This document shows positions 605 to 32,446 of a stretch of 64,000 bases of DNA, piece after piece. A program made the translations under genes and the position numbers. The notes below the pieces were generated by a model. That model did no database searches, had not been told where the DNA came from, and worked only from the letters and a program-made list of their open reading frames with translations. This stretch comes from a virus (Duplodnaviria > Heunggongvirae > Uroviricota > Caudoviricetes), in IMG/VR virus record IMGVR_UViG_3300009702_000014, positions 62,445 through 126,444 of that record. One strand, written 5' to 3'. Every line of letters starts with the position of its first letter. Within the stretch, counting starts at the first letter, position 1.

Positions 605-689
605 TGGTGGGAGAGGTAGGATTCGAACCTACTAAGCCTAAGGCATCCGGGTTACAGCCGGACACAACTCGCCATCGTTGCCGCTCTCC
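605..689 (-). tRNA. tRNA-Tyr(GTA), type II with long variable arm, CCA encoded
   Basis: reverse complement gives acceptor GGGAGAG/CTCTCCC, anticodon stem TCCGG/CCGGA with loop CTGTAAC, T-arm GGTTCGAATCC, 3' ACCA. Confidence 0.6.
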
Positions 690-826
690 CATAAATTGAG
701 TATCCTTTTTCGTCGGGCGGCGATACTCGTTCCGCTCCCCGCAACCCGAACCTGTCCTCGGTCAAGCGTCTATCCGCTTTGTCTGCCGTTGCTATTCACG
801 GCTGTCAAACCTATGGTGGGGCTGTA

Positions 827-909
827 TGGTGGACGAAGAGGGACTTGAACCCACGGCCTACGCGCTACGCGCTGCCAGCGCGTTGCTCTTCCAACTGAGC
901 TATTCGCCC
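827..909 (-). tRNA. tRNA-Ala(GGC) carrying a 7-nt tandem duplication (CGCGTAG x2) after the anticodon stem; possibly non-functional
   Basis: acceptor GGGCGAA/TTCGTCC with G3:U70; D-arm GCTCAGTTGGAAGAGC; anticodon loop CTGGCAG; T-loop TTCAAGT; CCA encoded; removing one CGCGTAG copy leaves a canonical 76-nt tRNA. Confidence 0.5.
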
Positions 910-973
910 ATACACACACCATAGTATATCATGTAATGAGAAGCATGTGAATATTTAGCTTCCTCTTTCCCGA

Positions 974-1049
974 TGGTAGCGTAGCACGGATTCGAACCGA
1001 GATTACCAGCTTGAAGGGCTGGTGTCCTGTACCCTTAGACGACTACGCC
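974..1049 (-). tRNA. tRNA-Glu(TTC)
   Basis: reverse complement GGCGTAGTCGTCTAAGGGTACAGGACACCAGCCCTTCAAGCTGGTAATCTCGGTTCGAATCCGTGCTACGCTACCA; resembles bacterial tRNA-Glu as recalled; anticodon loop CCTTCAA. Confidence 0.65.
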
Positions 1050-1259
1050 TTAATTGTACTGCTTGTCGATTTGTTCCTCGGAAAGCACCATGTAGCGCCC
1101 TTCATGCTCTCCCTCTGTAATTCGGCACTTATGATAGGGCTTTCCAAAATGACGCGTTAGAACAATCGCTACTCCACGTGCTTCTTTCTCTGTGTAGAGC
1201 TTTTCATTGACTACTGACACGGTACGGTTCATTTTTTTCCTTCTCCAAGCGTGGCGCAA
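1050..1259 (-). CDS. hypothetical small protein
   Basis: 69-aa ORF between tRNA genes. Confidence 0.3.
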   Translation of the reverse strand: MRHAWRRKKMNRTVSVVNEKLYTEKEARGVAIVLTRHFGKPYHKCRITEGEHEGRYMVLSEEQIDKQYN

Positions 1260-1431
1260 TAAAGTGTTTGACTCGATAGTTTAGATTGTCGGCCAGAGCA
1301 ATAAGCTCTTGGTCTGTAAGAATAGTGAATGGAGCGCCCCAACCGTTTCTTTTGACTATACCATCAAAACGAATTACATGTTCATCAGGTTCCCGACTAG
1401 AAACTACTGTAACTTTTGGCCCCATGCTCAA
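1204..1431 (-). CDS. hypothetical small protein
   Basis: 75-aa ORF between tRNA genes. Confidence 0.3.
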   Translation of the reverse strand: MSMGPKVTVVSSREPDEHVIRFDGIVKRNGWGAPFTILTDQELIALADNLNYRVKHFIAPRLEKEKNEPYRVSSQ

Positions 1432-1447
1432 ACTCCTTACTTAAAAA

Positions 1448-1523
1448 TGGTGTACCAGAAGGGACTCCAACCCCTAACCCCCCGAATGCAAATCGGGCGC
1501 TCTCGCAGTTGAGCTACTGGCAC
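1448..1523 (-). tRNA. tRNA-Ala(TGC)
   Basis: acceptor GTGCCAG/CTGGTAC with G3:U70; anticodon stem CCCGA/TCGGG with loop TTTGCAT; T-loop TTGGAGT; CCA encoded. Confidence 0.65.
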
Positions 1524-1527
1524 GTGA

Positions 1528-1598
1528 TGGTGGAGGCCGAGGGAATCGAACCCTCCAAAGAATGTCTGCATAACATTCAAGCTATTCCTAAAGCCCCC
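1528..1598 (-). tRNA. atypical tRNA-like element (71 nt, reduced D-arm); isotype unresolved
   Basis: canonical T-arm GAGGGTTCGATTCCCTC and ACCA 3' end; acceptor GGGGGCT/GGCCTCC; anticodon region GAATGTTATGCAGACATTC folds ambiguously; D-arm only about 3 bp. Confidence 0.35.
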
Positions 1599-1672
1599 AC
1601 AGTTATAGGAAACAGGGTGTGCTAGCCTATGGTCTAACTTCCTATTTCCATCTGTCGCAGATAATGTCTGCG

Positions 1673-1758
1673 TGGCGGAAGGTGAGGGAATCGAACCCCC
1701 GAGGCTGTTACGCCCAACTGTTTTCAAGACAGGTTCCTCGACCAACCGGGCACCTTCC
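1673..1758 (-). tRNA. tRNA-Ser(TGA), type II
   Basis: acceptor GGAAGGT/ACCTTCC; anticodon loop CTTGAAA; long variable arm; T-arm GGGGGTTCGATTCCCTC; CCA encoded; 86 nt. Confidence 0.6.
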
Positions 1759-1761
1759 ATA

Positions 1762-1836
1762 TGGTCCTCCCGGTAGGAATCGAACCCACGCTGTTCCGAT
1801 TAAAAGTCGGTTGCCTAACCATTCGGCCACGGGAGG
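1762..1836 (-). tRNA. tRNA-Lys(TTT)
   Basis: acceptor CCTCCCG/CGGGAGG; anticodon region ACCGACTTTTAATCGGA resembles bacterial tRNA-Lys; T-loop TTCGATT; ACCA. Confidence 0.65.
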
Positions 1837-1968
1837 ATAAATTGTGTAGTTGGCACACGGTATTTGGACGGTTACTTAGCAGCAACGCCACACTATTATT
1901 TCCGTGCTATCCCCATTGGCCCAGGGTACCTTTCGGCCGCCAACCGTCAACAATATAACAGATACAAA

Positions 1969-1983
1969 TATGAGAAGGATTAG
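1969..1983 (-). promoter_or_regulatory. copy of recurrent minus-strand motif CTAATCCTTCTCATA (putative phage promoter), upstream of a tRNA sub-cluster
   Basis: plus strand reads TATGAGAAGGATTAG; same 15-mer family recurs at least 14 times in the window. Confidence 0.5.
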
Positions 1984-1987
1984 AACT

Positions 1988-2064
1988 TGGTGCTCCGGGA
2001 GGGATTTGAACCCGCATCTGGTCTGATTAAGAATCAGCCGCTTTGCCAATTAAGCTACCGAAGC
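1988..2064 (-). tRNA. tRNA-Lys(CTT) (tentative anticodon)
   Basis: acceptor GCTTCGG/CCGGAGC; D-arm GCTTAATTGGCAAAGC; anticodon loop TTCTTAA by position counting; T-loop TTCAAAT; CCA encoded. Confidence 0.5.
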
Positions 2065-2068
2065 ATAA

Positions 2069-2185
2069 GGCGGAGGGAAGGATTCGAACCTCTCACGACC
2101 GGAACCGTGCCACTTCCAACTGGCCCTCACGCATGGGAGAGTTTACCCCGACTTAAGCACCTTTGTCAACCCCTTTCAAGAAAGT
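2069..2185 (-). tRNA. tRNA-like element or elements with a T-arm signature; structure unresolved
   Basis: contains GGATTCGAACC (T-loop on minus strand) and a D-arm-like GCCAGTTGGAAGTGGC, but no convincing acceptor pairing could be found by hand over the 117-nt interval. Confidence 0.25.
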
Positions 2186-2260
2186 TGGCTCTAGGGGCAG
2201 GATTCGAACCTACAACTAACAGGTTAACAGCCTGTCGTGTTACCATTACACCACCCTAGA
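2186..2260 (-). tRNA. tRNA-Asn(GTT)
   Basis: acceptor TCTAGGG/CCCTAGA; anticodon stem ACAGG/CCTGT with loop CTGTTAA; T-arm GTAGGTTCGAATCCTGC; GCCA 3' end. Confidence 0.7.
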
Positions 2261-2269
2261 ATACATGTT

Positions 2270-2640
2270 TTAATGAAGCTGTTTATACTCCTTGCTCGGA
2301 ATTGTAGTTTGTCGTAAGTTATAAACACTATTCCAAGTAGCTAGGACTGCTAAGAGCAGAATAATAAGGGAAACAAAAGAAGTGCTTCCTTTCAGGAGAG
2401 GCAATAAATAGATTAGACCAATAAACGAATAAATACCTATATGAGCGACCTCCTTTGCTTTACGGCCCCATTTCACAAAAAAAGAAAGGGTATCAAAAAC
2501 TACGTTAAATAAGAAAAGGCCAATTATTACTATAAAATAGTGTTCCGCTATAAAGTCCGAGGAACCAACAAGCCAAAGGATTACCAAAGCTACGAGACTA
2601 AAATAAATAATATCGTTAAAGATACGTTTTACGTAAGGCA
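2270..2640 (-). CDS. small integral membrane protein
   Basis: ORF 2270..2698 is strongly hydrophobic with several predicted TM segments; start trimmed to internal Met (MPYVKR) because the upstream part overlaps tRNA-Asp. Confidence 0.4.
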
Positions 2641-2662
2641 TACATAATATCCTCTCAAATAT

Positions 2663-2740
2663 TGGCGGCCTAGACGGGATTCGAACCCGCAACCTCACCG
2701 GCTGACAACCGGGTGTTCAACACCGTAGAACTACTAAGCC
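2663..2740 (-). tRNA. tRNA-Asp(GTC)
   Basis: acceptor GGCTTAG/CTAGGCC; anticodon loop TTGTCAG; T-arm GCGGGTTCGAATCCCGT; GCCA 3' end. Confidence 0.65.
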
Positions 2741-2765
2741 ATACCTAAAGTATATGATAGCAGGA

Positions 2766-2780
2766 AATGAGAAATATTAG
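2766..2780 (-). promoter_or_regulatory. copy of recurrent motif (minus strand CTAATATTTCTCATT) upstream of tRNA-Asp
   Basis: plus strand reads AATGAGAAATATTAG. Confidence 0.45.
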
Positions 2781-2810
2781 ATTGTCAATGTACTTGTCCT
2801 AGAAGGACTT

Positions 2811-2884
2811 TGGCGCGGGAGGAGGGATTCGAACCCATTCACAGAGGAGTTTTGGGGACTCCCTGGCACAACCTACGCTCTCCC
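2811..2884 (-). tRNA. degenerate tRNA-like element (possible tRNA-Trp(CCA) remnant)
   Basis: T-loop TTCGAAT and GCGCCA 3' end; good anticodon-like hairpin GGAGT-CCCCAAA-ACTCC; acceptor and T-stems pair poorly and the D region is shortened. Confidence 0.3.
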
Positions 2885-3328
2885 ACATGTGCGGATGTGT
2901 TTTCTAATAGCATTATCCGAAACGCCTAACTCTCTACCCAAAGCAGAATACCCGATTTCTTCGGCTCGGGCTGTGAGGTATTCCACAGGAGGCCAGTCTA
3001 TCTTTTTACGGCGAAAATCGTACCAAGTTTTTATATAATTAGGTTTCACTCGGTAACGAGTGTCTAAGCATATATAAGCGCCGTCCATACGTTTCACAAG
3101 AGGATTTTTCTTGTTTCTATGGTACCGCGCATGGTGTCGCTGACTTAGAAAAACCATCAAATTACTTGGGACGTTGTGCGCTCGATTTTCGTCCATATGA
3201 TGCACAACTTCATAATTTTTTAATGGCCTCCCAAGCATCCTCTCAGCGACCAATACATGTTCCCATACACATCCGTTGGGGCGTGCTCTAGGGTGGGCGG
3301 GGCGATAAATTTCAACATAGTTATTCAT
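2873..3328 (-). CDS. HNH homing-type endonuclease
   Basis: HNH motif VVHHMDENRAHNVPSNLMVFLSQRHHARYH; start trimmed to internal Met (MNNYVEIY) because upstream ORF sequence overlaps tRNA-Gly; embedded in the tRNA array. Confidence 0.6.
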   Translation of the reverse strand: MNNYVEIYRPAHPRARPNGCVWEHVLVAERMLGRPLKNYEVVHHMDENRAHNVPSNLMVFLSQRHHARYHRNKKNPLVKRMDGAYICLDTRYRVKPNYIKTWYDFRRKKIDWPPVEYLTARAEEIGYSALGRELGVSDNAIRKHIRTCGRA

Positions 3329-3374
3329 TTTACTGCCCTTTCCGTGTGGAGCGGCATAGGAGAATCGACAAATT

Positions 3375-3450
3375 TGGAGCGGACGGTGAGATTCGAACTC
3401 ACGAAATATCGGTTTGGAGGACCGACGCCTTACCACTTGGCCACGTCCGC
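3375..3450 (-). tRNA. tRNA-Gly(TCC)
   Basis: acceptor GCGGACG/CGTCCGC; anticodon stem TCGGT/ACCGA with loop CCTCCAA; T-arm GGTGAGTTCGAATCTCACC; TCCA 3' end resembles bacterial tRNA-Gly(UCC). Confidence 0.7.
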
Positions 3451-3716
3451 ATAAATTTTACCGCAAGCCGGGGTGGAGGGCCGTATGCATCCGGTTATCC
3501 TCTCACGCAGGGAGCGGTAAGTCCCCTACGCACAGCAAAGCCCCGACCAGTAACTCCCCAGCATCGTAACACTGAGGGTGCCACAGAATAAATCTGTGGG
3601 GGAGAAAATACGGGCAGCTACTCAGGAAACCGACCTTTTGGGTCCGGGGGTGCTTTTTGCGTCACTCTGTCGCCGGGTTTGCCCAACCCTATTATCCTCT
3701 CGGCGTGACGGCGGTA

Positions 3717-3806
3717 TGGCGGTGGGAATAGGATTCGAACCTATGGACCTCTTTCGAAATCACGTACTTTCCAGGCACGCCCAATAAACCGCTCTGGCAT
3801 CCCACC
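3717..3806 (-). tRNA. tRNA-Ser(GGA), type II
   Basis: acceptor GGTGGGA/TCCCACC; anticodon stem CGTGC/GTACG with loop CTGGAAA; long variable arm; T-arm ATAGGTTCGAATCCTAT; GCCA; 90 nt. Confidence 0.6.
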
Positions 3807-3853
3807 ATGTTCAAACTTGCATTCATTACATTTGAACAGTATAATATACTTAT

Positions 3854-4399
3854 ATGAAAACTACATTAGAAAACGACATTCTTACTTTAAGAAAAGAAGG
3901 AAAAACTTATTCTCAAATTCAAAAAGAACTAGGCTGTTCCAGAGGCACTATTTCTTATTATGTTGGTAAAGGACAGAAAGATAAAACACGTCAACGAAAT
4001 AAAAAAGTTAGAGACGAAAATCCAGTTAGTCGAAAGGTAGCTGAATTTAAATCAAGAGGAAAAGCACGAAAGAATTTTGTTTCTAAAACAAGAGATTTCC
4101 AACGTCGTGACGGTTTATATCTAGCATCTACTCCTGAAACCGTTGATTTTACGTATCAAGACGTGCTAGATAAAATTGGCCCTAATCCTACATGTTATTT
4201 AACAGGACTGCCTATAGATTTATATGACCCGTCCTCTTACCATTTTGACCATATTATCCCTGCATCACAAGGTGGTAATAATTCTCTAGAAAACCTTGGA
4301 ATCGCTTTAAAATCCGCAAACAATGCAAAAGACTCATTACTCTTAGGAGAATTTTTAGACCTGTGTGAAGCAGTTTTGAAACACCACGGTAGAATATAA
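3854..4399 (+). CDS. HNH homing-type endonuclease with N-terminal HTH
   Basis: HNH motif HFDHIIPASQGGNNSLENLGIALKSANNAK; the only plus-strand gene inside the minus-strand tRNA array. Confidence 0.65.
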   Translation: MKTTLENDILTLRKEGKTYSQIQKELGCSRGTISYYVGKGQKDKTRQRNKKVRDENPVSRKVAEFKSRGKARKNFVSKTRDFQRRDGLYLASTPETVDFTYQDVLDKIGPNPTCYLTGLPIDLYDPSSYHFDHIIPASQGGNNSLENLGIALKSANNAKDSLLLGEFLDLCEAVLKHHGRI

Positions 4400-4401
4400 A
4401 T

Positions 4402-4488
4402 TGGCGGAAGGGGTGGGAATCGAACCCACAGGCCCATTGAGCCCCGAATTTAGCAAATTCGGCAGAGTAGCCAATCTCAATCCCTTCC
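4402..4488 (-). tRNA. tRNA-Ser(GCT), type II
   Basis: acceptor GGAAGGG/CCCTTCC; anticodon stem CGAAT/ATTCG with loop TTGCTAA; long variable arm; T-arm GTGGGTTCGATTCCCAC; GCCA. Confidence 0.65.
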
Positions 4489-12307: not shown

Positions 12308-12722
12308 AGCCCTTAGAACGCCGGGAAACTCTAACATTTCGTTTCATATATAAAAATTTGGAGGCGTCGGCATCGAAGCCGAGTCCAGAATAATGTCCAA
12401 ATAGCCTTCTACGTGTGTAGCACCTTACTCAAGTGCGGAGTCTTACGGGGTTTTGTCTGTTATACATTTGCAGTTATTGTGCGCTAACTGCGGGCGGGGG
12501 CTGCTTTACGCAGCGAGTGGCATACCGTAGCTACCATAGGTAGCAGGGATATAACCGTAATCATTAACGTTGTTAGTTAATTATTTGGGCTTGTTAAGGG
12601 GCCAGCCCACCCCTACACGCGGGTTATTCTTCTTTTGCCCTGTCGAAACCTTGTCGCCCCCATAATTCCTCGGGGTATCCAGGCTCATTGCTTCTTAATA
12701 ATACCACATAATCTACAAGGCG

Positions 12723-16048: not shown

Positions 16049-16768
16049 TTAGGTCCCCTTCAAAACTAAGACCGGCTTTAAACGTTTTTCGACAATTGCT
16101 ACTTCGGCATCAACCAATGCTCCAATTACTTCATCTACGTCCTTATAGGCTCCGTGAGATTCGTCCAAGGGCACGTTCTGGAAGTTACCCATAACGTTTC
16201 TTGTTTTAAACTCAGCGTTAATAGTGCCCTGGTCGAGCATTTCCTTTGCCTTACCACGGCTCAGCACGCGGCCAGCACCGTGAGACACAGACTCCCCGAG
16301 TTTCGGAGCCATTTTACCAGGACGGAGCACGTAGCTTCCAGTTGCCATGCTACCAGGAACTAGTAACGGAATACCATCGTTATCGTAGGCTGGTGTAGCC
16401 CCCTTACGGCCTACGAATTTTTCGTTGCGCTGCTCAATGAAGTTGTGCGGAATGTGCCCGATAAAATTAAATTGAGCCTCTGGAAGCACTTCCTGGATTG
16501 CCTCTGCGACCGAGTGCTGCACAATATAGTGGTTATGAGTCGTCCATTCAAGCATAGCCTGTTGGAAGGCGAAGTAGAAACGCCCCAAACTACTATCCGC
16601 AGGAACGTAGAGCAACTTATTCTTAGGTGCTGCTCCCCACTTCGTCAATTCCGCTTCAATAGCTTCGTCAAAGAATTTTGCACCCTTTGCTCCAATTCCA
16701 CGGCTACCGAAATGCGACATAACGAAAACATTTCCATCTTCATCTTCCTGTACTTCTACAAAGTGATT
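16049..16768 (-). CDS. rtcB: RtcB RNA ligase, exon 2 (C-terminal part)
   Basis: in-frame extension above the annotated Met reads NHFVEVQEDEDGNVFVMSHFGSRGIG; contains RtcB GSRG, PGSMATGSYV and SHGAGR motifs; upstream stop at 16784. Confidence 0.7.
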   Translation of the reverse strand, partial: NHFVEVQEDEDGNVFVMSHFGSRGIGAKGAKFFDEAIEAELTKWGAAPKNKLLYVPADSSLGRFYFAFQQAMLEWTTHNHYIVQHSVAEAIQEVLPEAQFNFIGHIPHNFIEQRNEKFVGRKGATPAYDNDGIPLLVPGSMATGSYVLRPGKMAPKLGESVSHGAGRVLSRGKAKEMLDQGTINAEFKTRNVMGNFQNVPLDESHGAYKDVDEVIGALVDAEVAIVEKRLKPVLVLKGT

Positions 16769-17836
16769 CAGTGTTGTTACTACTTACGCGAATTGGATAA
16801 AACCTACCGACCAAGGTTTGTTTTCTCCATATCTACATTGTATACTACATTTTGGTGAGATTGATGAGACTAGACTTTTCCAAACCAGAATTTTCATATA
16901 TGCTCGGATTACTACACGCAGACGGACATTATGACAAACAACATACCAATGGCAAAATAACACTTGAAGCCAGTATGAAAGATGTGGATATAGCCCATAA
17001 ATTATCAAAAGTGCTTCCTGGAAAATCTACAATCACGTATAGGAACCGGCATACTAATTACTCAAAAGACTCTCAAACCTTTGTGTGGAGCATATATGAC
17101 AAAGACATTCGTACTCAGTTCCCTATGCCTTCTGGCAAAAAATCCCACCTAATTGCCCCTCCAGATATCCCTTACTCCAAAGTAGACTATTGGAGAGGTA
17201 TCATAGATGGTGATGGTTCTCTTGGATTTACCAGTCAAGGACTTCCTTTTATTAGTTTAGTAACTCAAAGTGAGGCTCTAAAGGAAACCTACATAGATTT
17301 TCTTGAACCAATTCTAGGATATCGCAAGCGGCTATCACGTAATACACGGGATAATGTGTATAATATTGTAATATTCAATGAGGCGGCTCAGTCACTAGCA
17401 AATAAACTTTACTATCTTGACTGTCTTGCTATTGCTAGAAAGTACGAAGTGGCGAATCAGCTTAAACAATGGGAGCGTTCTATCCCGCAGCGGCCCCGCT
17501 CCCTACCGTGGGAGCAATGGGAAGAACAATATTTACAGACACACACCCTTGATGAAGCTATCAAATACTTATCTCATAGAACGAAAAAGGCTATTAAACT
17601 AAAACATTATCGCATAAGCGGGTAGGTCATTTCTGCCTACCTCAACATGTTTCCATGCTGCTCAGACTATCCCTTCATCCCGTAGGATGCGCCTATTATA
17701 GTCGTTGCACGTTCCCTCGCGGGCTTCGCTCAGGGTTGCCGTATAGCACCTAAAGGTCGGTGGCGCTACTTAGGGTTCCCCTGAATTTAAGGCGTTTTTA
17801 TCTTCCCTGTTACCAGGAAAGGGAGGCAGTCAGTTT
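16769..17836 (-). mobile_element. intervening sequence in rtcB (probable group I intron, about 1068 nt) carrying a LAGLIDADG endonuclease ORF in antisense orientation
   Basis: splits the invariant RtcB motif GGG|NHF; exon 1 ends with U (codon GGT), the insert ends with G (..CTG) before AAT CAC TTT; GC-rich structured flanks at 17626-17836. Confidence 0.55.
16852..17625 (+). CDS. LAGLIDADG homing endonuclease (two motifs)
   Basis: YMLGLLHADGH and WRGIIDGDGSLGF; plus strand, i.e. antisense to rtcB. Confidence 0.75.
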   Translation: MVRLMRLDFSKPEFSYMLGLLHADGHYDKQHTNGKITLEASMKDVDIAHKLSKVLPGKSTITYRNRHTNYSKDSQTFVWSIYDKDIRTQFPMPSGKKSHLIAPPDIPYSKVDYWRGIIDGDGSLGFTSQGLPFISLVTQSEALKETYIDFLEPILGYRKRLSRNTRDNVYNIVIFNEAAQSLANKLYYLDCLAIARKYEVANQLKQWERSIPQRPRSLPWEQWEEQYLQTHTLDEAIKYLSHRTKKAIKLKHYRISG

Positions 17837-18430
17837 ACCTCCACCAATGCTACCAACTTGTCCAAGCTGCGCCTGAGTCATGAGCTTGCTAAGCAAGTCC
17901 CACAAACTCTTCCATTCGTGAGTACGAGCGTGTTTATACAGCACGTACTCGCTGTTTTTGACCCAGGTCTTTTCGTGGCGAAAATGCCCCTGCACAATCC
18001 ACTTAAATTCGTCTATCGTTATGGGACGGCTCTGCTTTGGGACACGGGCGTGTCCTGCACCAACGCTAATACGACGGCCCATTTCTCCAAGAATGCGGCT
18101 ACGAAGTCCCTTGTCGGCCTGAGAAAGTCCTTTAATCCCATTAACTCGCATCAAAGACACAGAGCAGGCGGGGTCAGGCCCTACAACATCAGGGTAAAGG
18201 TGCGTACTAGACTCGACTACGCTCCCAATCGGGAAACCATAGCCCGTGTGCATGTCAGGCGTAACAGTGAAGCGTTCCACCCCCGGCAACTCCATAGAAT
18301 TGCGAAGTTGCTCCAATGCAGAGGATTCGACTGCCCCCATGAGGGCATCAGAGAGAAGCATGGTTGCCCATACGTTTCCGTGGCGCATTTTATAAATATT
18401 GCCAGCTTTAAACGGCTGAAATTCATTCAT
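17837..18430 (-). CDS. rtcB: RtcB RNA ligase, exon 1 (N-terminal part)
   Basis: PDMHTGYGFPIGSV and GSIGGG (start of GGGNHF motif); the ORF reads through into the insert (KLTASLSW*). Confidence 0.7.
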
Positions 18431-20416: not shown

Positions 20417-20972
20417 TCACAAAGCGTTCCAGCATTTCCTGGTCGCCCAACTCGTATACAGTTAGAAGGCTACTGAGAGAGTTAACTGTGAACTCCTTAC
20501 TACTAATTGTCTTGCGGAGAATATGACGAATCCTGTCCGTTAGGAATTGGATAGCCCTCTTATGGCTGACCTCTAGCTGTTTTACAGGAATATCTAGAAA
20601 TTCTACATCAAGACTGACGGAGGGAGCATGAATTCTCAAATCTCTAAATTTAATTCTTAGGCAAAGCCTTTCCTCCATGTCTGTAACAATTGAGAATTGT
20701 CCATCTAAGTAGTGCCATTCTCCAGGACCAGTGACAAAAGCCACATCAATCGCTTTAGGCCACACGGAGTCTTCAAACCAGCAACCCATATCACCCTGAA
20801 AATTTTCGATACGAAACTCAGCGTCGTAAATCTCTTGTAAAAGTTCCTCAGTAGGCTTCTCAATAGGGAATGACATAATTATCCTTTCAAAAATAGAGTT
20901 GAGTTGAGTTGGGTCGTAAGCCGGGTTCTGTTTCAATCTAGCATCTATCTTGTCTTGGGTTATTATTCCCAA
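20406..20972 (-). CDS. hypothetical protein
   Basis: 188-aa ORF. Confidence 0.45.
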   Translation of the reverse strand: MGIITQDKIDARLKQNPAYDPTQLNSIFERIIMSFPIEKPTEELLQEIYDAEFRIENFQGDMGCWFEDSVWPKAIDVAFVTGPGEWHYLDGQFSIVTDMEERLCLRIKFRDLRIHAPSVSLDVEFLDIPVKQLEVSHKRAIQFLTDRIRHILRKTISSKEFTVNSLSSLLTVYELGDQEMLERFVIGA

Positions 20973-21275
20973 GCTCTTTGCGGCAATTCTGCCTTGCTGC
21001 CACGTAAGGATTGCCTAGCCATAGGTTATTAGTCCTATGCTGGTGAGTTTTTACCTCACCGCTTTCACCTACCGCTGGTACGCGGTCTCTGTTCGCTGTT
21101 GCTCTTGCTCGCACGTCACCGTGGTCGGGCGTTACCCGATACGCTTTTTATGGCAGCCCGGACTTTCCTCCCCGTAGGGCGCTAGAATGCCCAACTCAAC
21201 TTCGCTCAGTCTACTCTACCATACTATGAGAATAGTGAAAAGTCCCCGACGTATGCCGAGGACTTTATAGGTTCT

Positions 21276-27945: not shown

Positions 27946-28272
27946 ATGAGAAGTATGAAATCTCACGTTTCTCACTCATATATATGTAGAATGGAGACTA
28001 TGGACACGCTTACTGACGAACAAGTTGAGTTTATGGATAAAATTCTTACCTTTCTTCTCTATTTGGAAACCATCACGTTAAGTCAAAACGAAATGATGTC
28101 TCCACAAGCGACGAAAGGCGACCTGATATCTAGTTGGGTGATATACAATAACAACATCACTACCTCAATGGCCAAGGAGATTCTAGACTCTGAGTATATG
28201 AAAGAGTATATCTCCGTCACCAACGAGGCTGAGAGAAAAAAGATTGAGGAAAAGTACCAAGAGGTTAACTAA
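27946..28272 (+). CDS. hypothetical protein (first gene of the plus-strand block; true start may be internal Met METMD)
   Basis: 108-aa ORF. Confidence 0.4.
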   Translation: MRSMKSHVSHSYICRMETMDTLTDEQVEFMDKILTFLLYLETITLSQNEMMSPQATKGDLISSWVIYNNNITTSMAKEILDSEYMKEYISVTNEAERKKIEEKYQEVN

Positions 28273-28817
28273 TGGAATTTATTGTGATGAACAGACAAGA
28301 AGCAGCGAATAGCACACGTCCTGGTGTGTATGGGGGTATCGTCTCCATCAATGACCCCGGCATGAAGATGCCGTGGGAAGTTAAGAATTTCCATAAAGGG
28401 CTCCGGCTTTCATTGTATTTCCATGACATTCGCAAGCCGCTTCCTCGCAATGCTACCCCATTTAAAATAGGGGCGTATCAGCCACCAACAAAGGAGGATG
28501 CGGAAAAGATTATCAATTTCGCTCGCCTTCTCCCCGAAGACGCAAAGGTCATGACACATTGTTACGCGGGCATCAGTCGCTCCAGTGCAGCCGCTATCAT
28601 CATCATTGCTACGCGGTATAACAAAGAAGAGGCGACTCAAAAAATCAAACAACTGGGAGAGGATTACCCTTGGATTTACCCTAACCAACTCCTAATCAAC
28701 TATGCTGCTGAAATTCTTGAATTGCCGTGGCTAGAAGGAACAGTGTCTTGGGCCATCAGTCATGGTATGTACGAGGATGGTTGGGAACCCTTGACAGAAA
28801 GGAAAGTAAATGGGTAA
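28272..28817 (+). CDS. cysteine-based (dual-specificity/PTP-like) phosphatase
   Basis: CX5R P-loop VMTHCYAGISRSS. Confidence 0.6.
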   Translation: MEFIVMNRQEAANSTRPGVYGGIVSINDPGMKMPWEVKNFHKGLRLSLYFHDIRKPLPRNATPFKIGAYQPPTKEDAEKIINFARLLPEDAKVMTHCYAGISRSSAAAIIIIATRYNKEEATQKIKQLGEDYPWIYPNQLLINYAAEILELPWLEGTVSWAISHGMYEDGWEPLTERKVNG

Positions 28818-29187
28818 AAAGAGTAGCGCGAAGAAAAAACTACGCCCATTCAAACAGGCTAATGTGACTTTCCATAAGTGGACAGAGGGGGATAAGGAAT
28901 ACGAGATTCAAGAGATTCACCCCTCAGGCACAGACCCTTCTACCGAAGAAATGGTAAAAGGAATGTCACTAATAGCCAAGTCAGGACCAGAGACTTTCGA
29001 TGGTCTTATGCAAATGCTTATCAAGGCCCTTCCTAAGCGTAGATTTTACGTCATAACCCCAAGAGAATTCGTCCTGGGCGAAACCCCAATCCTTGTGGCA
29101 ACATACCCTGCACTTACAGAAGGACAAACCCGGCGTATAAAAGATGGCATAGAGAGCATTAGGAAGCAGAAGGGGTTGACAACATAA
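28810..29187 (+). CDS. hypothetical protein
   Basis: 125-aa ORF. Confidence 0.4.
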   Translation: MGKKSSAKKKLRPFKQANVTFHKWTEGDKEYEIQEIHPSGTDPSTEEMVKGMSLIAKSGPETFDGLMQMLIKALPKRRFYVITPREFVLGETPILVATYPALTEGQTRRIKDGIESIRKQKGLTT

Positions 29188-29204
29188 CTCTGGCGTGCTA
29201 TACT
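29176..29204 (+). promoter_or_regulatory. near-consensus sigma70-type promoter TTGACA-N17-TATACT
   Basis: TTGACA at 29176-29181, 17-nt spacer, TATACT at 29199-29204. Confidence 0.5.
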
Positions 29205-29210
29205 ATTGAT

Positions 29211-29538
29211 GTTGAAGGAAATAGCAACCAGGAAGTCGCATACTTCGATTACAAATGATACCGGTTATCCGCTGAGTGTAGGATGCGAAAAACCGCGACT
29301 TCAAAAACTTCTAGTACTTTAACCGCATTAAAGCACTCCTCTCTTTGGAGAGTACCACAATAAGTTTTTATAGGGGAGCCATATACTCCCCGCTCACAAA
29401 TAAATAATCTTTAGCAGCCAGGTTTTCGGTTACTTCGATACTAACTCGTCATATAGCACCGAACTCCACTTTTCTCTAAGGATATTTCTTTACGGATTTA
29501 CCCCTGGATGCTACACCATGTATCCAGGGTTTTCTTTT
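29211..29538 (+). ncRNA. candidate ~330-nt structured non-coding transcript directly upstream of the Ro60 orthologue (Y-RNA-like candidate)
   Basis: delimited by the promoter above and an intrinsic terminator; no ORF of 60 aa or more; 8-bp inverted repeat GAAGTCGC..GCGACTTC and several hairpins (GGGGAG..CTCCCC; CTCTC..GAGAG). Confidence 0.3.
29502..29538 (+). terminator. rho-independent terminator
   Basis: CCCTGGAT-12 nt-ATCCAGGG followed by TTTTCTTTTG. Confidence 0.6.
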
Positions 29539-29717
29539 GCTTCAATCGGCTATGATTGAACTTAAAGAAGAATACAGAAACCTAATCGAACTAAAAAATC
29601 TAGTAGGGAAGCTTTTCATCATTTTTATGGATGCTCCCTTATGCGAGCAGGAGGACAGAGTGACTCACCTTCTTATCTGCCTGTTCGAAAGCTATCATAA
29701 TCTAAAAGGAGATTAAT

Positions 29718-31274
29718 ATGAACAAACTAAACACTACCAGACAACCAAGAACCCGTTATGTTAACACCTACGAGGGCGGTCGCGGCCTCAAGGTCGGCGC
29801 TGAGGAAGAATTGGCGTTTCTAACCTTCGCTAGCAATTTCCATGACAAGTTTTATGAAACCGGTAAGGCTACTCTAAAGCGTATGGAGGCTCTTGTTAAC
29901 CAGTCGCGCCCGGAGTTCGTCCAACAGCTAGCCCGTGTTGCTCGTCAAGAGTTCAACATGCGTGCTACCCCAGCAGCTTTGACGGCTTTCTATACCTTGA
30001 AGCATGGACAGCCAGATAATGATAAGCTTATCACTGACGCTTTCTTCCGTGGCGACGAAATCGGTGACTACCTAGCCGTAGTCGAATCTGCCTCCCGTAA
30101 GGGTAAGGTTATTCCTTCTGCCGTTCGTTTTGCTCGTCGCGTTTTGCAGGAACAGCTAAATGAGCGTAAGGCTCTGCGTTATGCTCGTTCTGGACGTGCC
30201 TGGAGCCTAGCTAAGATTATTCGCCTAAGCCACGCCCGCATGGGTGCTACCCCAGCCCAGGAAGCTCTCTTTAATTTCGTGCTCGCATGGAATGGTGAAG
30301 GTAGCTTGACAAAGGCGTGGGAAACGCTGCCCTCCGCACAGCGCAAGTTGCTTCCGACTATCAAGCAGGCTGTCGAAGGTGGAGACGCCGACGGCAGCAT
30401 CAGTTGGGAACGTACTATTTCTGCTGCTGGTGCAGAGAAGGACTGGACTAGGGTTGTAGATAAGATGGGCTACATGGCCCTTCTACGTAACCTTCGTAAC
30501 TTCCTCCAGGACGTTCCGGCTAAGAATACGGAATTCTGGAACACGGTTACTCGTAGGCTAGCTGACGAGGAAGAAGTCTTGGCTTCTAAGCAATTCCCAT
30601 TCCGTTTCTACTCTGCATACAAGGCTATTAAGGATATGCAGCACGCTAAGACTCACGCGGTCATTGATGCGCTGTCTACTGCCTTGGACTACTCGGCACG
30701 CAATCTCCCGGAATTCCCGGAAAAGACCCTTATCGTTATCGACGCTTCCGGTTCTATGAGTAGTGGTTTGCTTTCCGACAAGTCTGAAATGTCTTATCGT
30801 GAAGTCGGGGAAGTTTTGGGTGCAGCTCTATTCACTACGACAGGTGCAGATGTTGTACACTTCGGTACGACTGCGTACAAGCACAACGGCCTCGACGTAA
30901 ACAGTGGTGTTCTAAACACCCTTAATGAGTTTGCTACGGTCAACCACAGCACGGTAAGGGGCATCTATATGGGTCGGGGTGGCCGCAAGATGGTCGGCCA
31001 CAGCACAGAGCTTGGTTCCATTCAAAGCGTTGTAAATGTTAACGACTATGATGCTATCATCGTTTTCTCTGACATGCAGCTAGCTGATAGTGCCAGCAGC
31101 ACCCTTGGTAACTACAAGGGTAAGCTCTACACTGTCAATATGGCGGGCTATGAGGCCCAGCTAGACCTACGTAGCAACGATGTTGTTGCTGTCGGGGGTT
31201 GGAGCGAAGCTGTTCTCCGGCTTATGTCGCTTATCACACGTAACCAGCTTATCAAGTACATCCTGGACTACTAG
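29718..31274 (+). CDS. rsr: Ro60-like RNA-binding protein (TROVE domain plus C-terminal vWA domain)
   Basis: vWA MIDAS TLIVIDASGSMSS; 518 aa with N-terminal region resembling TROVE as recalled; strong RBS AAAGGAGA. Confidence 0.6.
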   Translation: MNKLNTTRQPRTRYVNTYEGGRGLKVGAEEELAFLTFASNFHDKFYETGKATLKRMEALVNQSRPEFVQQLARVARQEFNMRATPAALTAFYTLKHGQPDNDKLITDAFFRGDEIGDYLAVVESASRKGKVIPSAVRFARRVLQEQLNERKALRYARSGRAWSLAKIIRLSHARMGATPAQEALFNFVLAWNGEGSLTKAWETLPSAQRKLLPTIKQAVEGGDADGSISWERTISAAGAEKDWTRVVDKMGYMALLRNLRNFLQDVPAKNTEFWNTVTRRLADEEEVLASKQFPFRFYSAYKAIKDMQHAKTHAVIDALSTALDYSARNLPEFPEKTLIVIDASGSMSSGLLSDKSEMSYREVGEVLGAALFTTTGADVVHFGTTAYKHNGLDVNSGVLNTLNEFATVNHSTVRGIYMGRGGRKMVGHSTELGSIQSVVNVNDYDAIIVFSDMQLADSASSTLGNYKGKLYTVNMAGYEAQLDLRSNDVVAVGGWSEAVLRLMSLITRNQLIKYILDY

Positions 31275-31278
31275 GAAA

Positions 31279-31308
31279 GGCCCCGCTTCGGCGGGGTTTC
31301 ACTTTTCT
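31279..31308 (+). terminator. rho-independent terminator after the Ro60-like gene
   Basis: CCCCGC-TTCG-GCGGGG followed by TTTCACTTTTCTC. Confidence 0.6.
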
Positions 31309-31313
31309 CATGT

Positions 31314-31598
31314 TTGTTTAGAGTAAGATGTTGTTCATTGAAGGAGGAAGTCATGCACAATCATCGAGCAGTTGCAGCTATCGAAAGGGCTGCACTTGAA
31401 GGTCTAGGTATTATTGCTGTTATGTGGGCGTTCCTAGCCCTCTTTGGAAGTTACATAGGGTTTGTTTCATCCACATCAGGCAGTTTCACCGGTTATTTCG
31501 GTGTTCTCGTGCTATACACCTTAGTAAGGGCAATTTTTCTTGCCAGAAAGGAAACTAAATTAAGAAGAAGCTGGTGTTGCTCTTGTTGGTCTCGTTGA
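31314..31598 (+). CDS. small membrane protein
   Basis: two hydrophobic helices; precedes and overlaps the SPFH gene. Confidence 0.4.
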   Translation: MFRVRCCSLKEEVMHNHRAVAAIERAALEGLGIIAVMWAFLALFGSYIGFVSSTSGSFTGYFGVLVLYTLVRAIFLARKETKLRRSWCCSCWSR

Positions 31599-32446
31599 GC
31601 TTTATTCTCGGAGCCTGTTCGTATGTAGCCCCCGGGGAAGTCGGCATTAAAATCGACAAGATGGGGCATCACCGTGAGGTAACAAATGCTGATGTGGTCG
31701 TTGGGCGTGTGTTCTATAATCCCATCACTACAGGTATCGTCACCTATCCAATTAAGGCTGAGCGTATCGTTTGGACTCGCAGCAACACCGAAGGTAGTCC
31801 AAACAACGATGAAATCGACTTTAACTCTAAGGAAGGGTTGAAGCTAACTGCCGATGTGGCACTAACGGTTTCTGTCAACCCAAAGTGTGCTCCCCAATTG
31901 TATAACACATATAAGCAGCCGCTTAGTGTCCTCATTCAAGGAACCATCCGAGATATTGTTCGTGAAAATATGAGAAGAGTTTCTTCGAATATGGGCGTCG
32001 AGGATATCATCGGGAGCGGAGCCGACAGCTTTAATCAACAGGTAAAGGCTGGTATCACTAAAGAGCTTGCCCCGATGTGTGTAGATGTTAAAGAGTTCTC
32101 TGTTCTAGGTACTATTCGGGTACCAGACAGTGTTACTGCTTCAATTCATCAGAAGATTCAGGCTCAGCAAGATGCGCTAACCGAAATGAATAAGGTTAAG
32201 GTCGCCCAGGCACAAGCCGACCAGATGCGGGAATTGGCGCAAGGTAAGGCAGACTCCGCTGTTATTCAAGCTAAGGGTGAAGCAGAAGCCCTCAAGATTC
32301 GTGGACAGGCTCTAGCCAATAACCCCGAGATTCTACAGCTTGAAGCAATTCAGCAATGGAATGGCGTGCTACCACAGTACATGCCGGGTACTCAGTCGGG
32401 AGCACTACCTTTCGGCATCATGGTAAACCCTCTAGCTAAAAAGTAG
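31574..32446 (+). CDS. SPFH/band-7 (stomatin/prohibitin/HflC-like) membrane protein
   Basis: N-terminal TM, SPFH core, then long Ala/Gln-rich coiled-coil QAQADQMRELAQGKADSAVIQAKGEAEALKIRGQA. Confidence 0.6.
   Translation: MLLLLVSLSFILGACSYVAPGEVGIKIDKMGHHREVTNADVVVGRVFYNPITTGIVTYPIKAERIVWTRSNTEGSPNNDEIDFNSKEGLKLTADVALTVSVNPKCAPQLYNTYKQPLSVLIQGTIRDIVRENMRRVSSNMGVEDIIGSGADSFNQQVKAGITKELAPMCVDVKEFSVLGTIRVPDSVTASIHQKIQAQQDALTEMNKVKVAQAQADQMRELAQGKADSAVIQAKGEAEALKIRGQALANNPEILQLEAIQQWNGVLPQYMPGTQSGALPFGIMVNPLAKK

What the first reader, a model, noticed from the sequence alone, without database searches (positions are those of the whole stretch)
29176..31308. Ro60 (TROVE+vWA) orthologue preceded by a promoter/terminator-delimited ~330 nt structured non-coding RNA (Y-RNA-like candidate)
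- **Ro60-like gene:** ORF 29718..31274 carries a vWA MIDAS motif (IDASGSMSS) in the C-terminal half. Its 518-aa architecture matches Ro60/Rsr.
- **Upstream transcript:** A near-consensus TTGACA-N17-TATACT promoter (29176-29204) sits directly upstream. A strong intrinsic terminator follows (29502-29538). Between them is ~330 nt with no ORF but multiple hairpins, including an 8-bp long-range inverted repeat GAAGTCGC/GCGACTTC.
- **Established knowledge:** In bacteria, and reportedly in some phages, rsr is accompanied by Y RNAs encoded nearby. The rsr locus is often linked to rtcB, and this phage also encodes RtcB.
- **Inference:** The unit may be a phage Ro60/Y-RNA RNA-surveillance or tRNA-metabolism module.
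Basis: partly seen in the sequence, partly recalled or inferred. Interest (0 to 1): 0.78.

Follow-up and report, generated by a model that had tools for sequence, protein, structure and literature searches.

The report
Phage Ro60 gene with two Y RNAs
A large phage carries a Ro60 RNA-binding protein gene, and just upstream of it one promoter drives two small structured RNAs that are relatives of the Y RNAs known to partner Ro60; this is a new, slightly unusual example of a known system, not a new kind of system.

Summary
The promoter TTGACA-N17-TATACT (29176-29204), the terminator (29502-29538) and a full-length Ro60 gene (29718-31274) are all present.

- **M2 (29405-29485):** a short hairpin with a basal stem, the 5' internal loop CAGCCA, a 10-bp helix and the motif GGUUACUUC. 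A covariance model built only from Ro60 loci outside the window's clade finds M2 at 49 bits (E 5e-9). It is the only hit in the 64-kb window.
- **The family:** it lies next to Ro60, on the same strand, in dozens of phage and metagenome loci. It has strong covariation and no Rfam model.
- **M1 (29211-29323):** it shares the 5' motif. Its assignment as a Y RNA is weaker.
- **Differences from YrlA:** neither module has YrlA's tRNA-like domain. The canonical CGAA Ro60-binding core reads CCAG.

Phage Ro60 with Y-like RNAs is already published (mycobacteriophages; Thermus phage phiLo). I rate this a new variant of a known kind, of moderate interest.

The parts
29176..29204 (+). Sigma-70-type promoter: TTGACA, 17-nt spacer, (TGc)TATACT. 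The predicted transcription start is about 29211.
   Evidence: It matches 11 of 12 consensus positions and has an extended -10 TG. It is one of three perfect TTGACA-N17-TATAMT sites in a window where such sites are about 15-fold enriched over shuffles. An equivalent TTGACA...TAtAcT promoter precedes the RNA modules in L161, L162, L081, L290, L287, L319, L001, L322 and L323.
29211..29323 (+). Module M1, the larger Y-like RNA. Its parts are an outer stem GUUGAAG/CUUUAAC that starts at the predicted transcription start, UAG/CUA, the 5' loop CAACCA (within AGCAACCA, 29223-29230), the helix GGAAGUCGC (29231-29239) / GCGACUUC (29295-29302), UACUUC (29241-29246) and a 50-nt apical domain.
   Evidence: The fold is. 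In alignment A7 with five relatives, 96.5% of cells are paired, against 39-54% when the partners are slid, and 4 of the 8 helix pairs show compensatory changes. The clade model R1 gives 15 bits, E 0.001, in a local 651-nt search. The distant-only model R2 does not detect it. No tRNA or YrlA signal was found.
29339..29391 (+). Spacer with two hairpins: CUCUC-UUUG-GAGAG (29339-29352) and GGGGAG-N7-CUCCCC (29373-29391). They may be processing sites or protect the 3' end of M1.
   Evidence: The fold gives z = -2.45. A similar G+C-rich hairpin precedes M2 in L318, L162, L081 and L323. The function is inferred.
29405..29485 (+). Module M2, a short-hairpin Y RNA. Its parts are the basal stem CUUUAG/CUAAGG, the 5' loop CAGCCA, a helix GGUUUUCGGU/ACCGAACUCC with a 2x2 mismatch, an apical loop that starts UACUUC (29431-29436), and the 3' loop ACUUUUCU.
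   Evidence: R1 gives 71 bits. R2, built without any sequence from the window's clade, gives 49.2 bits, E 5e-9, and this is the only hit in the window. In the 39-sequence family alignment, 90.9% of cells are paired against 57% in shuffles, and 14 of 15 pairs show compensatory changes.
29502..29539 (+). Intrinsic terminator that ends the Y-RNA unit. It is presumably leaky, which would allow Ro60 expression.
   Evidence: It has a 10-bp stem with 6 G-C pairs and a U tract. All relatives with the RNA modules have a terminator hairpin between the last module and the Ro60 ribosome-binding site. No promoter-like site lies between it and the Ro60 gene on the + strand.
29537..29716 (+). Orphan 59-aa ORF (TTG start; an internal ATG at 29552) between the terminator and the Ro60 gene. 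Coding status is unknown.
   Evidence: It is listed and has no Pfam or PHROG match. It has no homologue in any related locus. In the closest relative, L318, the terminator abuts the Ro60 ribosome-binding site.
29718..31274 (+). Ro60 / TROVE + vWA (MIDAS) protein, 518 aa, with the ribosome-binding site AAGGAG 7 nt upstream.
   Evidence: Pfam TROVE E 2.6e-18. PHROG 850 'RNA-binding protein' E 1.7e-33 over residues 8-511. PDB 9KOP/9L5Y (phiLo Ro60) E about 1e-22 over residues 15-504. The database search returned 575 homologues. The MIDAS residues D342, S344, S346, T430 and D452 are invariant.
31278..31309 (+). Intrinsic terminator that ends the Ro60 transcription unit.
   Evidence: A 9-bp stem GGCCCCGC-UUCG-GCGGGGUU followed by a U-rich tail.
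28810..29187 (+). Conserved 125-aa ORF of unknown function. Its last codons overlap the -35 element of the Y-RNA promoter.
   Evidence: tblastn finds homologues (28-36% identity). They lie just upstream of the RNA promoter in L162, L081, L161, L287 and L290; in L319 the homologue lies further upstream, at 1218-1568. It has no family match.

Best explanation
The locus is a phage Ro60-Y RNA ribonucleoprotein module.

**Proposed transcription (inferred).** A strong host-type promoter at 29176-29204 starts transcription near 29211. The transcript carries two Y-RNA-like modules in tandem: M1 (29211-29323) and M2 (29405-29485). Most transcripts stop at the intrinsic terminator (29502-29539). Readthrough continues into the Ro60 gene (29718-31274). 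This would make the RNAs in excess over the Ro60 mRNA.

**Proposed RNA maturation (inferred).** The precursor is cut into separate RNAs, as described for bacterial Y RNA precursors.

**Proposed RNP assembly (inferred by homology).** Each module has the Y RNA layout: a stem closed by its two ends and an asymmetric internal loop. The conserved 5' strand of that loop (here UAGCAGCCAGG) sits where the Ro60-binding GNCGAA motif lies in known Y RNAs. An apical, pyrimidine-rich effector end begins UACUUC. Ro60 binds the 5' strand on the outside of its ring, and the apical loop recruits a host factor. The likely factor is PNPase, as in the Deinococcus RYPER complex and the phiLo in-vitro complex.

**Proposed role (speculative).** The RNP redirects or restrains host RNA decay, or handles damaged structured RNAs, alongside the phage's own RtcB ligase, tRNAs, tmRNA and RNase P RNA.

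**Shown here:** the sequence features, the homology of protein and RNA, covariation, and linkage to Ro60.
**Not shown:** transcription, processing, binding and function.
For: **Protein**
- Full-length Ro60 homology with an intact MIDAS motif.

**M2**
- A covariance model trained only on Ro60 loci outside the window's clade (about 26-31% protein identity) hits M2 at 49.2 bits, E 5e-9. It is the only hit in 64 kb.
- The reciprocal model, trained on the window's clade, gave 80 hits at E <= 5 in 158 distant Ro60 loci; 78 are on the Ro60 strand.
- Of the 41 of those hits with E <= 0.05, 39 are on that strand, and most lie within about 700 nt of the gene.
- Covariation: 14 of 15 pairs show compensatory changes, and 90.9% of cells are paired against 33-48% when partners are slid.

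**Link to known Y RNAs**
- The same modules stand in tandem with Rfam-detectable YrlA RNAs in L080 and in Streptomyces phage Kradal and Gordonia phage Rabbitrun.
- They share the stem motifs GYGAA...GGUUACUUC. The UUAC there corresponds to the conserved YUAY of Chen et al. 2014 (PMC4201824).

**M1**
- It shares the AGCAaCCAGG...AUACUUC layout. Its helix covaries. Its 5' end coincides with the predicted transcription start and pairs with its 3' end.

**Locus design and precedent**
- The promoter - module(s) - terminator - ribosome-binding site - Ro60 order is conserved in ten of the twelve related loci fetched.
- Precedents: two or more Y RNAs processed from one precursor next to rsr (PMC4201824); phiLo Ro60 binding RNA and host PNPase (PMC12135203).
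Against: - There are no expression, processing or binding data.
- The core of the canonical Ro60-binding motif is changed. Loop position 5 is C in the window's subclade, but a purine in 29 of 30 other family members. Binding therefore cannot simply be assumed by analogy.
- M1 is not recognised by the distant-family model. It could be a different kind of RNA.
- Rfam YrlA, Y_RNA and tRNA models find nothing here, and there is no tRNA-like effector domain.
- Two close relatives, L164 and L291, have no detectable module within 3 kb. The RNA is therefore not obligatory at this position.
- Readthrough of a strong terminator as the only route to Ro60 expression is an inference. A phage-specific promoter could exist in 29540-29717.
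Confidence: 0.75

Rival explanations
1. The structured region is a cis-acting leader or attenuator of the Ro60 gene, not a source of free RNAs. In this reading, Ro60 or another factor binds the leader and sets how often the terminator at 29502-29539 is read through. That would autoregulate Ro60 synthesis.
For: The promoter - structured RNA - terminator - ribosome-binding site order is the classic attenuator layout. In most relatives the terminator sits only 10-35 nt from the Ro60 ribosome-binding site, with no room for another promoter. A GCAGCAAAGGAG sequence that resembles the 5' loop of the Y modules precedes the start codon in six relatives.
Against: In many loci, homologous modules lie downstream of Ro60, where they cannot be leaders: L080, L103, L129, L071, L036 and phiLo L321. 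Modules occur in tandem with YrlA RNAs, which are known to act in trans. No alternative anti-terminator pairing was seen. The two roles do not exclude each other.
Confidence: 0.1
2. This is the reader's literal version: one ~330-nt non-coding RNA that functions as a single unit and is not processed into separate Y RNAs.
For: There is one promoter and one terminator, and the whole stretch folds better than its shuffles (z = -3.87). No processing signal can be read from the sequence.
Against: The region resolves into two independently folding modules with the same architecture. Each closes on its own ends. Relatives carry one module (L290, L287, L319) or two, so modules are gained and lost as units. 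Characterised bacterial Y RNAs are cut from polycistronic precursors (PMC4201824).
Confidence: 0.1
3. Only M2 is a Y RNA. M1 is a different structured RNA with a separate role, for example a decoy or a stability or processing element. It merely shares a short 5' motif with M2.
For: The distant-family model R2 does not score M1, and R1 gives only 15 bits. In M1 the UACUUC motif is paired with GAAGUA in most relatives, whereas it lies in a loop in the short modules. The apical domain of M1 has its own conserved element, GGAAGUAAGyCCUGCAA.
Against: M1 has the same order of elements as M2: basal stem, CAaCCA loop, covarying helix, then UACUUC. It occupies the position that the larger Y RNA takes in known loci. 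L289 M1 scores with the distant-family model at 28.8 bits. L001 M1 has the same layout by eye, with a canonical-type loop GGCGAUUGG, but R2 did not score it at E <= 1.
Confidence: 0.2
4. The intergenic region encodes a small protein: the 38-aa TTG ORF at 29206-29322.
For: The ORF exists.
Against: No homologue was found in any related locus. Substitutions among relatives preserve base pairs, not codons. The ORF has no ribosome-binding site and starts with TTG. M2 has no ORF of 30 aa or more.
Confidence: 0.02

Closest known systems
Thermus phage phiLo Ro60 with Yrl1/Yrl2 (PMC12135203; PDB 9KOP, 9L5Y)
   Same: Both are phage-encoded Ro60 proteins with a TROVE ring and a vWA-MIDAS domain. It is the closest solved structure to the window protein (E about 1e-22 over residues 15-504). 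Both have two Y-like RNAs next to the gene. In vitro, the phiLo protein forms a complex with RNA and host PNPase, which is the best functional precedent.
   Different: Protein identity is only about 26%. The published Yrl1 and Yrl2 were picked upstream of the gene by a CGAA motif. My models instead find two modules of the window's family downstream of the phiLo gene, at L321 3479-3552 and 3670-3757. These carry a GCC-type loop like the window's.
Bacterial and mycobacteriophage YrlA (Rfam RF02553; Chen et al. 2014, PMC4201824)
   Same: Both are encoded beside Ro60 on the same strand, often with a second Y RNA in one precursor. Both have a stem closed by the 5' and 3' ends with a conserved 5' strand, followed by the conserved YUAY (UUAC within GGUUACUUC here).
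   Different: YrlA is defined by a tRNA-like domain (T arm, D arm, acceptor-like stem). Neither window module has one. The Rfam model gives no hit at E <= 10, although it detects the control phages. The GNCGAA motif reads CAGCCAG.
Short hairpin Y RNAs: Salmonella and M. smegmatis YrlB, D. radiodurans Yrn2 (PMC4201824)
   Same: [quoted passage not shown] Each is encoded next to the larger Y RNA and rsr, is bound by Rsr and is processed from a shared precursor. M2 has this format.
   Different: I did not compare sequences with YrlB or Yrn2 here, because they are not in any collection I could search. According to the paper, BLAST with YrlB found orthologues only within Salmonella. The family found here is broad (phages and metagenomes) and has no Rfam model.
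Metazoan Y RNAs (Rfam RF00019) and the Xenopus Ro60-Y RNA complex
   Same: The overall logic is the same: terminal stem, internal loop or bulge with a conserved 5' strand bound by Ro60, and a distal effector loop. From memory, human Y1 carries ...CCGAAGGUAGUGAGUUAUCUC..., which resembles the phage ...GCGAAGGUAGCGGUUACUUC...
   Different: There is no Rfam Y_RNA hit. The bulged-helix 3' strand is not conserved. The resemblance to hY1 is recalled, not tested.

Membership tests
Ro60 / TROVE protein family | TROVE (HEAT-repeat ring) domain | tested here: met
   Pfam PF05731 E 2.6e-18, above the curated cut-off. PHROG 850 E 1.7e-33 over residues 8-511. Alignment to phiLo Ro60 9KOP over residues 15-504, E about 1e-22.
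Ro60 / TROVE protein family | C-terminal vWA domain with a MIDAS motif (DxSxS...T...D) | tested here: met
   D342-A-S344-G-S346, T430 and D452 are invariant in 36 clade members. The motif aligns with DVSGSM of phiLo Ro60.
Ro60 / TROVE protein family | Closed ring fold with a central cavity | not tested
   I ran no structure prediction. The fold is inferred from full-length sequence homology to a solved ring structure.
Y RNA (general definition: Ro60-bound RNA encoded by the Ro60 locus) | Encoded within a few kb of Ro60 on the same strand | tested here: met
   M1 and M2 lie 233-507 nt upstream of the Ro60 start, on the + strand. For the family, 39 of 41 significant hits in distant loci are on the Ro60 strand.
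Y RNA (general definition: Ro60-bound RNA encoded by the Ro60 locus) | [quoted passage not shown] | tested here: met
   M2 family: 14 of 15 pairs show compensatory changes. M1: the 5' end at the predicted start pairs with 29317-29323, and the helix covaries.
Y RNA (general definition: Ro60-bound RNA encoded by the Ro60 locus) | Conserved 5'-strand Ro60-binding motif: GNCGAAN0-1G in bacteria, GGUCCGA in animals | tested here: not met
   The homologous position reads CAGCCAGG in M2 and CAACCAGG in M1. The G of CGA is C in all modules of the window's subclade, but a purine in 29 of 30 other family members. The more distant clade members L289 and L001 keep CGAA or CGAU.
Y RNA (general definition: Ro60-bound RNA encoded by the Ro60 locus) | Physical binding by Ro60, and dependence on Ro60 for stability | not testable with these tools
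   This needs immunoprecipitation, EMSA or Northern blots.
YrlA (Rfam RF02553) | Match to the YrlA covariance model | tested here: not met
   No hit at E <= 10 in 28700-31700. No hit at E <= 1 in five relatives. The positive controls worked: Kradal 43 bits, Rabbitrun 31.5 bits, L080 30.9 bits.
YrlA (Rfam RF02553) | tRNA-like domain (T arm, acceptor-like stem, D arm) | tested here: not met
   No tRNA-model or ARAGORN hit in the region. The apical domain of M1 is only about 50 nt and has no GGUUCGAAUCC-type T arm.
Short Ro60-linked hairpin RNA family (defined here by models R1 and R2) | Significant score against a model built without the query's clade | tested here: met
   M2 scores 49.2 bits, E 5e-9, with R2. 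M1 does not score with R2.
Metazoan Y_RNA (Rfam RF00019) | Match to the covariance model | tested here: not met
   No hit at E <= 10.

The most novel reading that the evidence does not exclude
The window's Ro60 subclade and its Y RNAs may have jointly switched recognition code. The universally purine position of the Ro60-binding loop (CGAA) has become C (CCAG) in every module of the subclade. At the same time the Ro60 proteins changed at four positions: 117 (E to D), 137 (K to R), 166 (D to K) and 173 (P to A). Positions 166 and 173 fall in a stretch that aligns with the region the phiLo paper reports as RNA-binding. I did not map the numbering. Such a switch would give the phage a private Ro60-Y RNA pair, insulated from host Ro60 and Y RNAs. 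Its tRNA-domain-free Y RNAs would then tether a host nuclease as part of an anti-defence RNA-maintenance toolkit that also includes RtcB, tRNAs, tmRNA and RNase P RNA.
Probability: 0.15. Interest if true: 0.6.

Novelty: new variant of a known kind. Interest (0 to 1): 0.42.

Why it matters
Ro60-Y RNA particles are conserved from bacteria to humans and are a major human autoantigen. Their function is understood in only one or two bacteria.

This locus adds three things:
- It gives a clear layout for the phage version: one promoter, two Y modules, a terminator that is presumably leaky, then Ro60.
- It shows that a short hairpin Y RNA class accompanies Ro60 in many phages. This class has a conserved GGUUACUUC element, lacks the tRNA-like domain and has no Rfam model.
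- It shows that the supposedly defining CGAA core can be replaced. That matters for anyone who looks for Y RNAs by motif.

The covariance models also suggest that the natural Y RNAs of the structurally studied phiLo Ro60 may lie downstream of its gene. If so, they are not the upstream RNAs that were tested.

None of this overturns current understanding. It refines the family and offers testable RNA-protein pairs.

Tried and rejected
- **DNA similarity:** blastn of 28800-31400 against 50,697 phage records found nothing.
- **Exact protein look-up:** the look-up of contigs encoding the exact window protein found none, although an identical protein (P0001) is in the database.
- **First related-locus scan:** a single-protein scan of viral contigs found nothing. 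An alignment-based scan was needed.
- **Loose motif scan:** AGCAGCCA-N8-12-TACTTC in viral contigs returned 120 or more matches. The tighter 17-base pattern returned 25, about the number I estimated by hand for chance. Only the contig of L081 was real, and the model scores of the rest were weak. I dropped this route.
- **T-loop idea:** I considered that UUCGA in the window's ACUUCGAU might be a tRNA T-loop. I rejected this because relatives have UACUUCA or UACUUCU there and no T-stem pairs.
- **tRNA-like domain in M1:** I looked in the longer M1 of the relatives and found none.
- **Outermost pairing in the 330-nt fold:** the minimum-free-energy fold pairs the 5' end with the terminator's U tract. 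I treated this as spurious, because M1 folded alone closes on itself.
- **Protein-RNA co-variation:** the analysis gave four candidate protein positions. They rest on a single lineage, and phiLo, which is also GCC-type, does not share them. I did not use them as evidence.
- **Review article:** the Ro60 review PMC10870794 is not held.


Full report
**1. The observation**

- The promoter TTGACA-17-TATACT (29176-29204) matches 11 of 12 consensus positions and has an extended -10 TG.
- Sites of the form TTGACA-N17-TATAMT with at most one mismatch occur 10 times in the window, against 0.67 expected. The phage therefore uses host-type promoters, and this is one of its three perfect ones.
- The terminator at 29502-29529 has a 10-bp stem and a U tract.
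- The stretch 29211-29540 folds with z = -3.87.
- ORF 29718-31274 is a full-length Ro60. It matches Pfam TROVE and PHROG 850 over residues 8-511.
- It also matches the solved Thermus phage phiLo Ro60 over residues 15-504, E about 1e-22. The MIDAS residues are invariant in the clade.
An RtcB gene split by a group I intron lies at about 16.6-18.4 kb on the minus strand.

**2. Related loci**

No annotated phage shares DNA with this region. The Ro60 protein has 575 database homologues.
- A close clade of about 35 proteins has 38-53% identity, mostly from large metagenomic contigs of 114-209 kb.
- I fetched twelve clade loci: L001, L081, L161, L162, L164, L287, L289, L290, L291, L318, L319, L322 and L323 (L322 and L323 were added last). 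I also fetched 158 distant Ro60 loci with about 26-33% identity.
- The intergenic DNA upstream of Ro60 is conserved in the clade.

**3. Anatomy**

The region is two modules of one design, not one RNA. The design is:
- a basal stem;
- a 6-nt 5' internal loop, CAGCCA;
- a helix of about 10 bp with an internal mismatch;
- the motif UACUUC, which opens a variable apical region;
- the 3' strand of the helix;
- a pyrimidine-rich 3' loop (..UUUCU);
- the 3' strand of the basal stem.

The window has M1 at 29211-29323 and M2 at 29405-29485. Relatives have one module (L290, L287, L319) or two (L161, L162, L081, L289, L001, L322, L323). L318 is cut off at the contig end. In every case a TTGACA-type promoter precedes the modules, and a terminator follows that abuts the Ro60 ribosome-binding site. 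L164 and L291 have no detectable module.

**4. Is the structure real?**

- RNAalifold on a plain MAFFT alignment of nine short modules predicted the same two helices that I had read by eye.
- Counting pairs gave 83.6% paired against 70% in shuffles and 35-53% when partners were slid. Eight of 15 pairs had compensatory changes.
- On 39 family members, 90.9% of cells are paired against 57% in shuffles, and 14 of 15 pairs are compensatory. That alignment was fitted to the model, which favours the structure, but the margin is large.
- For M1, six sequences give 96.5% paired.

**5. Is it linked to Ro60 beyond this clade?**

- Model R1, built from the window's clade, gave 80 hits at E <= 5 in the 158 distant Ro60 loci. 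Of these, 78 are on the Ro60 strand.
- Of the 41 hits with E <= 0.05, 39 are on that strand: 26 upstream and 13 downstream. Most lie within about 700 nt of the gene.
- I built model R2 from those distant hits alone.
- R2 finds the window's M2 at 49.2 bits, E 5e-9. It finds nothing else in the 64-kb window.
- M2 is therefore a member of a widespread Ro60-linked RNA family.
- R2 does not score M1. R1 gives M1 15 bits.

**6. Relation to known Y RNAs**

- Rfam (4227 families) has no match in 28700-31700 at E <= 10. It has no YrlA or tRNA match on the modules of five relatives.
- This is not a gap in the library. YrlA (RF02553) is detected just upstream of the Ro-like genes of Streptomyces phage Kradal (43 bits) and Gordonia phage Rabbitrun (31.5 bits). 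It is also detected downstream of Ro60 in L080.
- In those three loci the YrlA stands in tandem with short modules that R1 or R2 recognise.
- By eye, the YrlA RNAs and the short modules share the stem sequences GYGAAG ... GGUUACUUC ... UUC(C/U)C.
- Chen et al. 2014 (PMC4201824) define bacterial Y RNAs by a 5' GNCGAAN0-1G motif and note a conserved YUAY after the stem. They also report that each studied species has at least two Y RNAs cut from one precursor next to rsr. [quoted passage not shown]
- M2 fits that short-hairpin format. The UUAC in GGUUACUUC is the YUAY.
- Neither module has the tRNA-like domain that defines YrlA.

**7. The variant motif**

- In the family alignment the 5' loop is NNGYRA: CAGUGA, UAGUGA, GUGCGA, AUGCGA and others.
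- Loop position 5, the G of CGAA, is a purine in 29 of 30 members outside the window's subclade. It is C in all nine short modules of that subclade (CAGCCA) and in the window's M1 (CAACCA).
- The more distant clade members L289 and L001 still have CGAA or CGAU. The two phiLo modules also read GCC.
- Four Ro60 positions switch together with the loop in the window's subclade. This is a single lineage and phiLo does not share the changes, so I treat it only as a lead.

**8. Mechanism**

*Shown:*
- a strong promoter, two Y-like modules, a terminator and a Ro60 gene on one strand;
- no recognisable promoter between the terminator and Ro60;
- the same order conserved in relatives.

*Inferred:*
- The RNAs are made in excess and cut apart.
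- Ro60 is translated from readthrough transcripts.
- Ro60 binds the conserved 5' strand of the internal loop.
- The UACUUC loop recruits a host protein, most likely PNPase. The precedents are the Deinococcus RYPER complex and the in-vitro phiLo Ro60-RNA-PNPase complex, which slowed PNPase (PMC12135203).

The genomic company fits an RNA repair and maintenance role, as proposed for jumbo phages (PMC7824862). It comprises intron-split RtcB, a metallophosphatase, Macro and PhoH proteins, 12 tRNAs, tmRNA and RNase P RNA. In L162 and L291, RtcB lies 1.3-2.2 kb downstream of Ro60.

**9. Rivals**

- *Pure cis-acting attenuator.* This fits the layout, but homologous modules lie downstream of Ro60 in many loci.
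- *Single unprocessed 330-nt RNA.* This is unlikely, because modules are gained and lost as units.
- *M1 is a different RNA from M2.* This remains possible.
- *Small-protein coding.* This is excluded for practical purposes.

**10. Verdict**

- Phage Ro60 with neighbouring Y-like RNAs is published (22 phages in PMC4201824; phiLo in PMC12135203), so this is not a new kind of system.
- New here are the tandem tRNA-domain-free format in this jumbo-phage clade, the CGAA-to-CCAG change, and evidence for a broad short-hairpin Y RNA family with no Rfam model.

Noticed in passing
window 20901-21198 (-), 12358-12661 (-), 605-4488 (-): The phage window carries a bacterial class A RNase P RNA (173 bits, full model length), a tmRNA (90.8 bits) and an array of 12 tRNA genes. 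tmRNAs are reported in huge phages. A literature search found nothing on phage-encoded RNase P RNA. M. smegmatis YrlA is an RNase P substrate (PMC4201824), but I found no link to the Y modules here.
   Followed up: partly
window about 16571-18424 (-), with a group I intron at 17643-17846 (-): The RtcB RNA ligase gene is split by a group I intron. The relative L162 has the same arrangement, with a LAGLIDADG ORF, 1.3 kb downstream of its Ro60 gene.
   Followed up: partly
L321 (Thermus phage phiLo, MH673673.1) 3479-3552 and 3670-3757: Both covariance models find two modules of the window's RNA family just downstream of the phiLo Ro60 gene. Scores are 25-41 bits and 11-27 bits. The second module follows a TTGACA promoter-like site, and the modules overlap the annotated hypothetical CDS phiLo_25. 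The published Yrl1 and Yrl2 were chosen upstream of the gene by a CGAA motif (PMC12135203). The natural partners of the solved protein may therefore be these downstream RNAs.
   Followed up: partly
L161 2985-2996, L162 2982-2993, L081 3983-3994, L322 1483-1494, L323 1484-1495, L164 2983-2994: The conserved sequence GCAGCAAAGGAG lies immediately before the Ro60 start codon in six relatives. Its GCAGC resembles the UAGCAGC of the 5' loop of the Y modules, so it could be a Ro60 autoregulatory site. It is absent from the window, where the orphan ORF 29537-29716 intervenes.
   Followed up: no
window 28810-29187 (+): A 125-aa ORF with no family match is kept in most relatives, just upstream of the Y-RNA promoter in five of them and further upstream in L319. 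Its stop codon overlaps the -35 element. It may be a functional partner of the module.
   Followed up: partly
Ro60 protein positions 117, 137, 166 and 173 (window 30066-30236): In the subclade whose Y RNAs carry the CCAG-type loop, four Ro60 positions differ from the residue conserved elsewhere: E to D, K to R, D to K and P to A. The nearest CGAA-type relatives, L289 and L001, keep the common residue. The pattern rests on a single lineage, so shared ancestry could explain it.
   Followed up: partly
L080 5838-6157 (also L128 and L131): In another phage contig, three Y RNAs stand in a row downstream of Ro60: two short modules (35.9 and 23.7 bits with R1) and then a YrlA (Rfam 30.9 bits). tRNA genes lie on both sides of the gene.
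   Followed up: partly
window 28272-28817 (+) and 31574-32446 (+): The neighbours of the unit are a weak dual-specificity-phosphatase-like protein (below the Pfam cut-off) and an SPFH/Band 7 protein (Pfam E 3.7e-22; PHROG 200).
   Followed up: no
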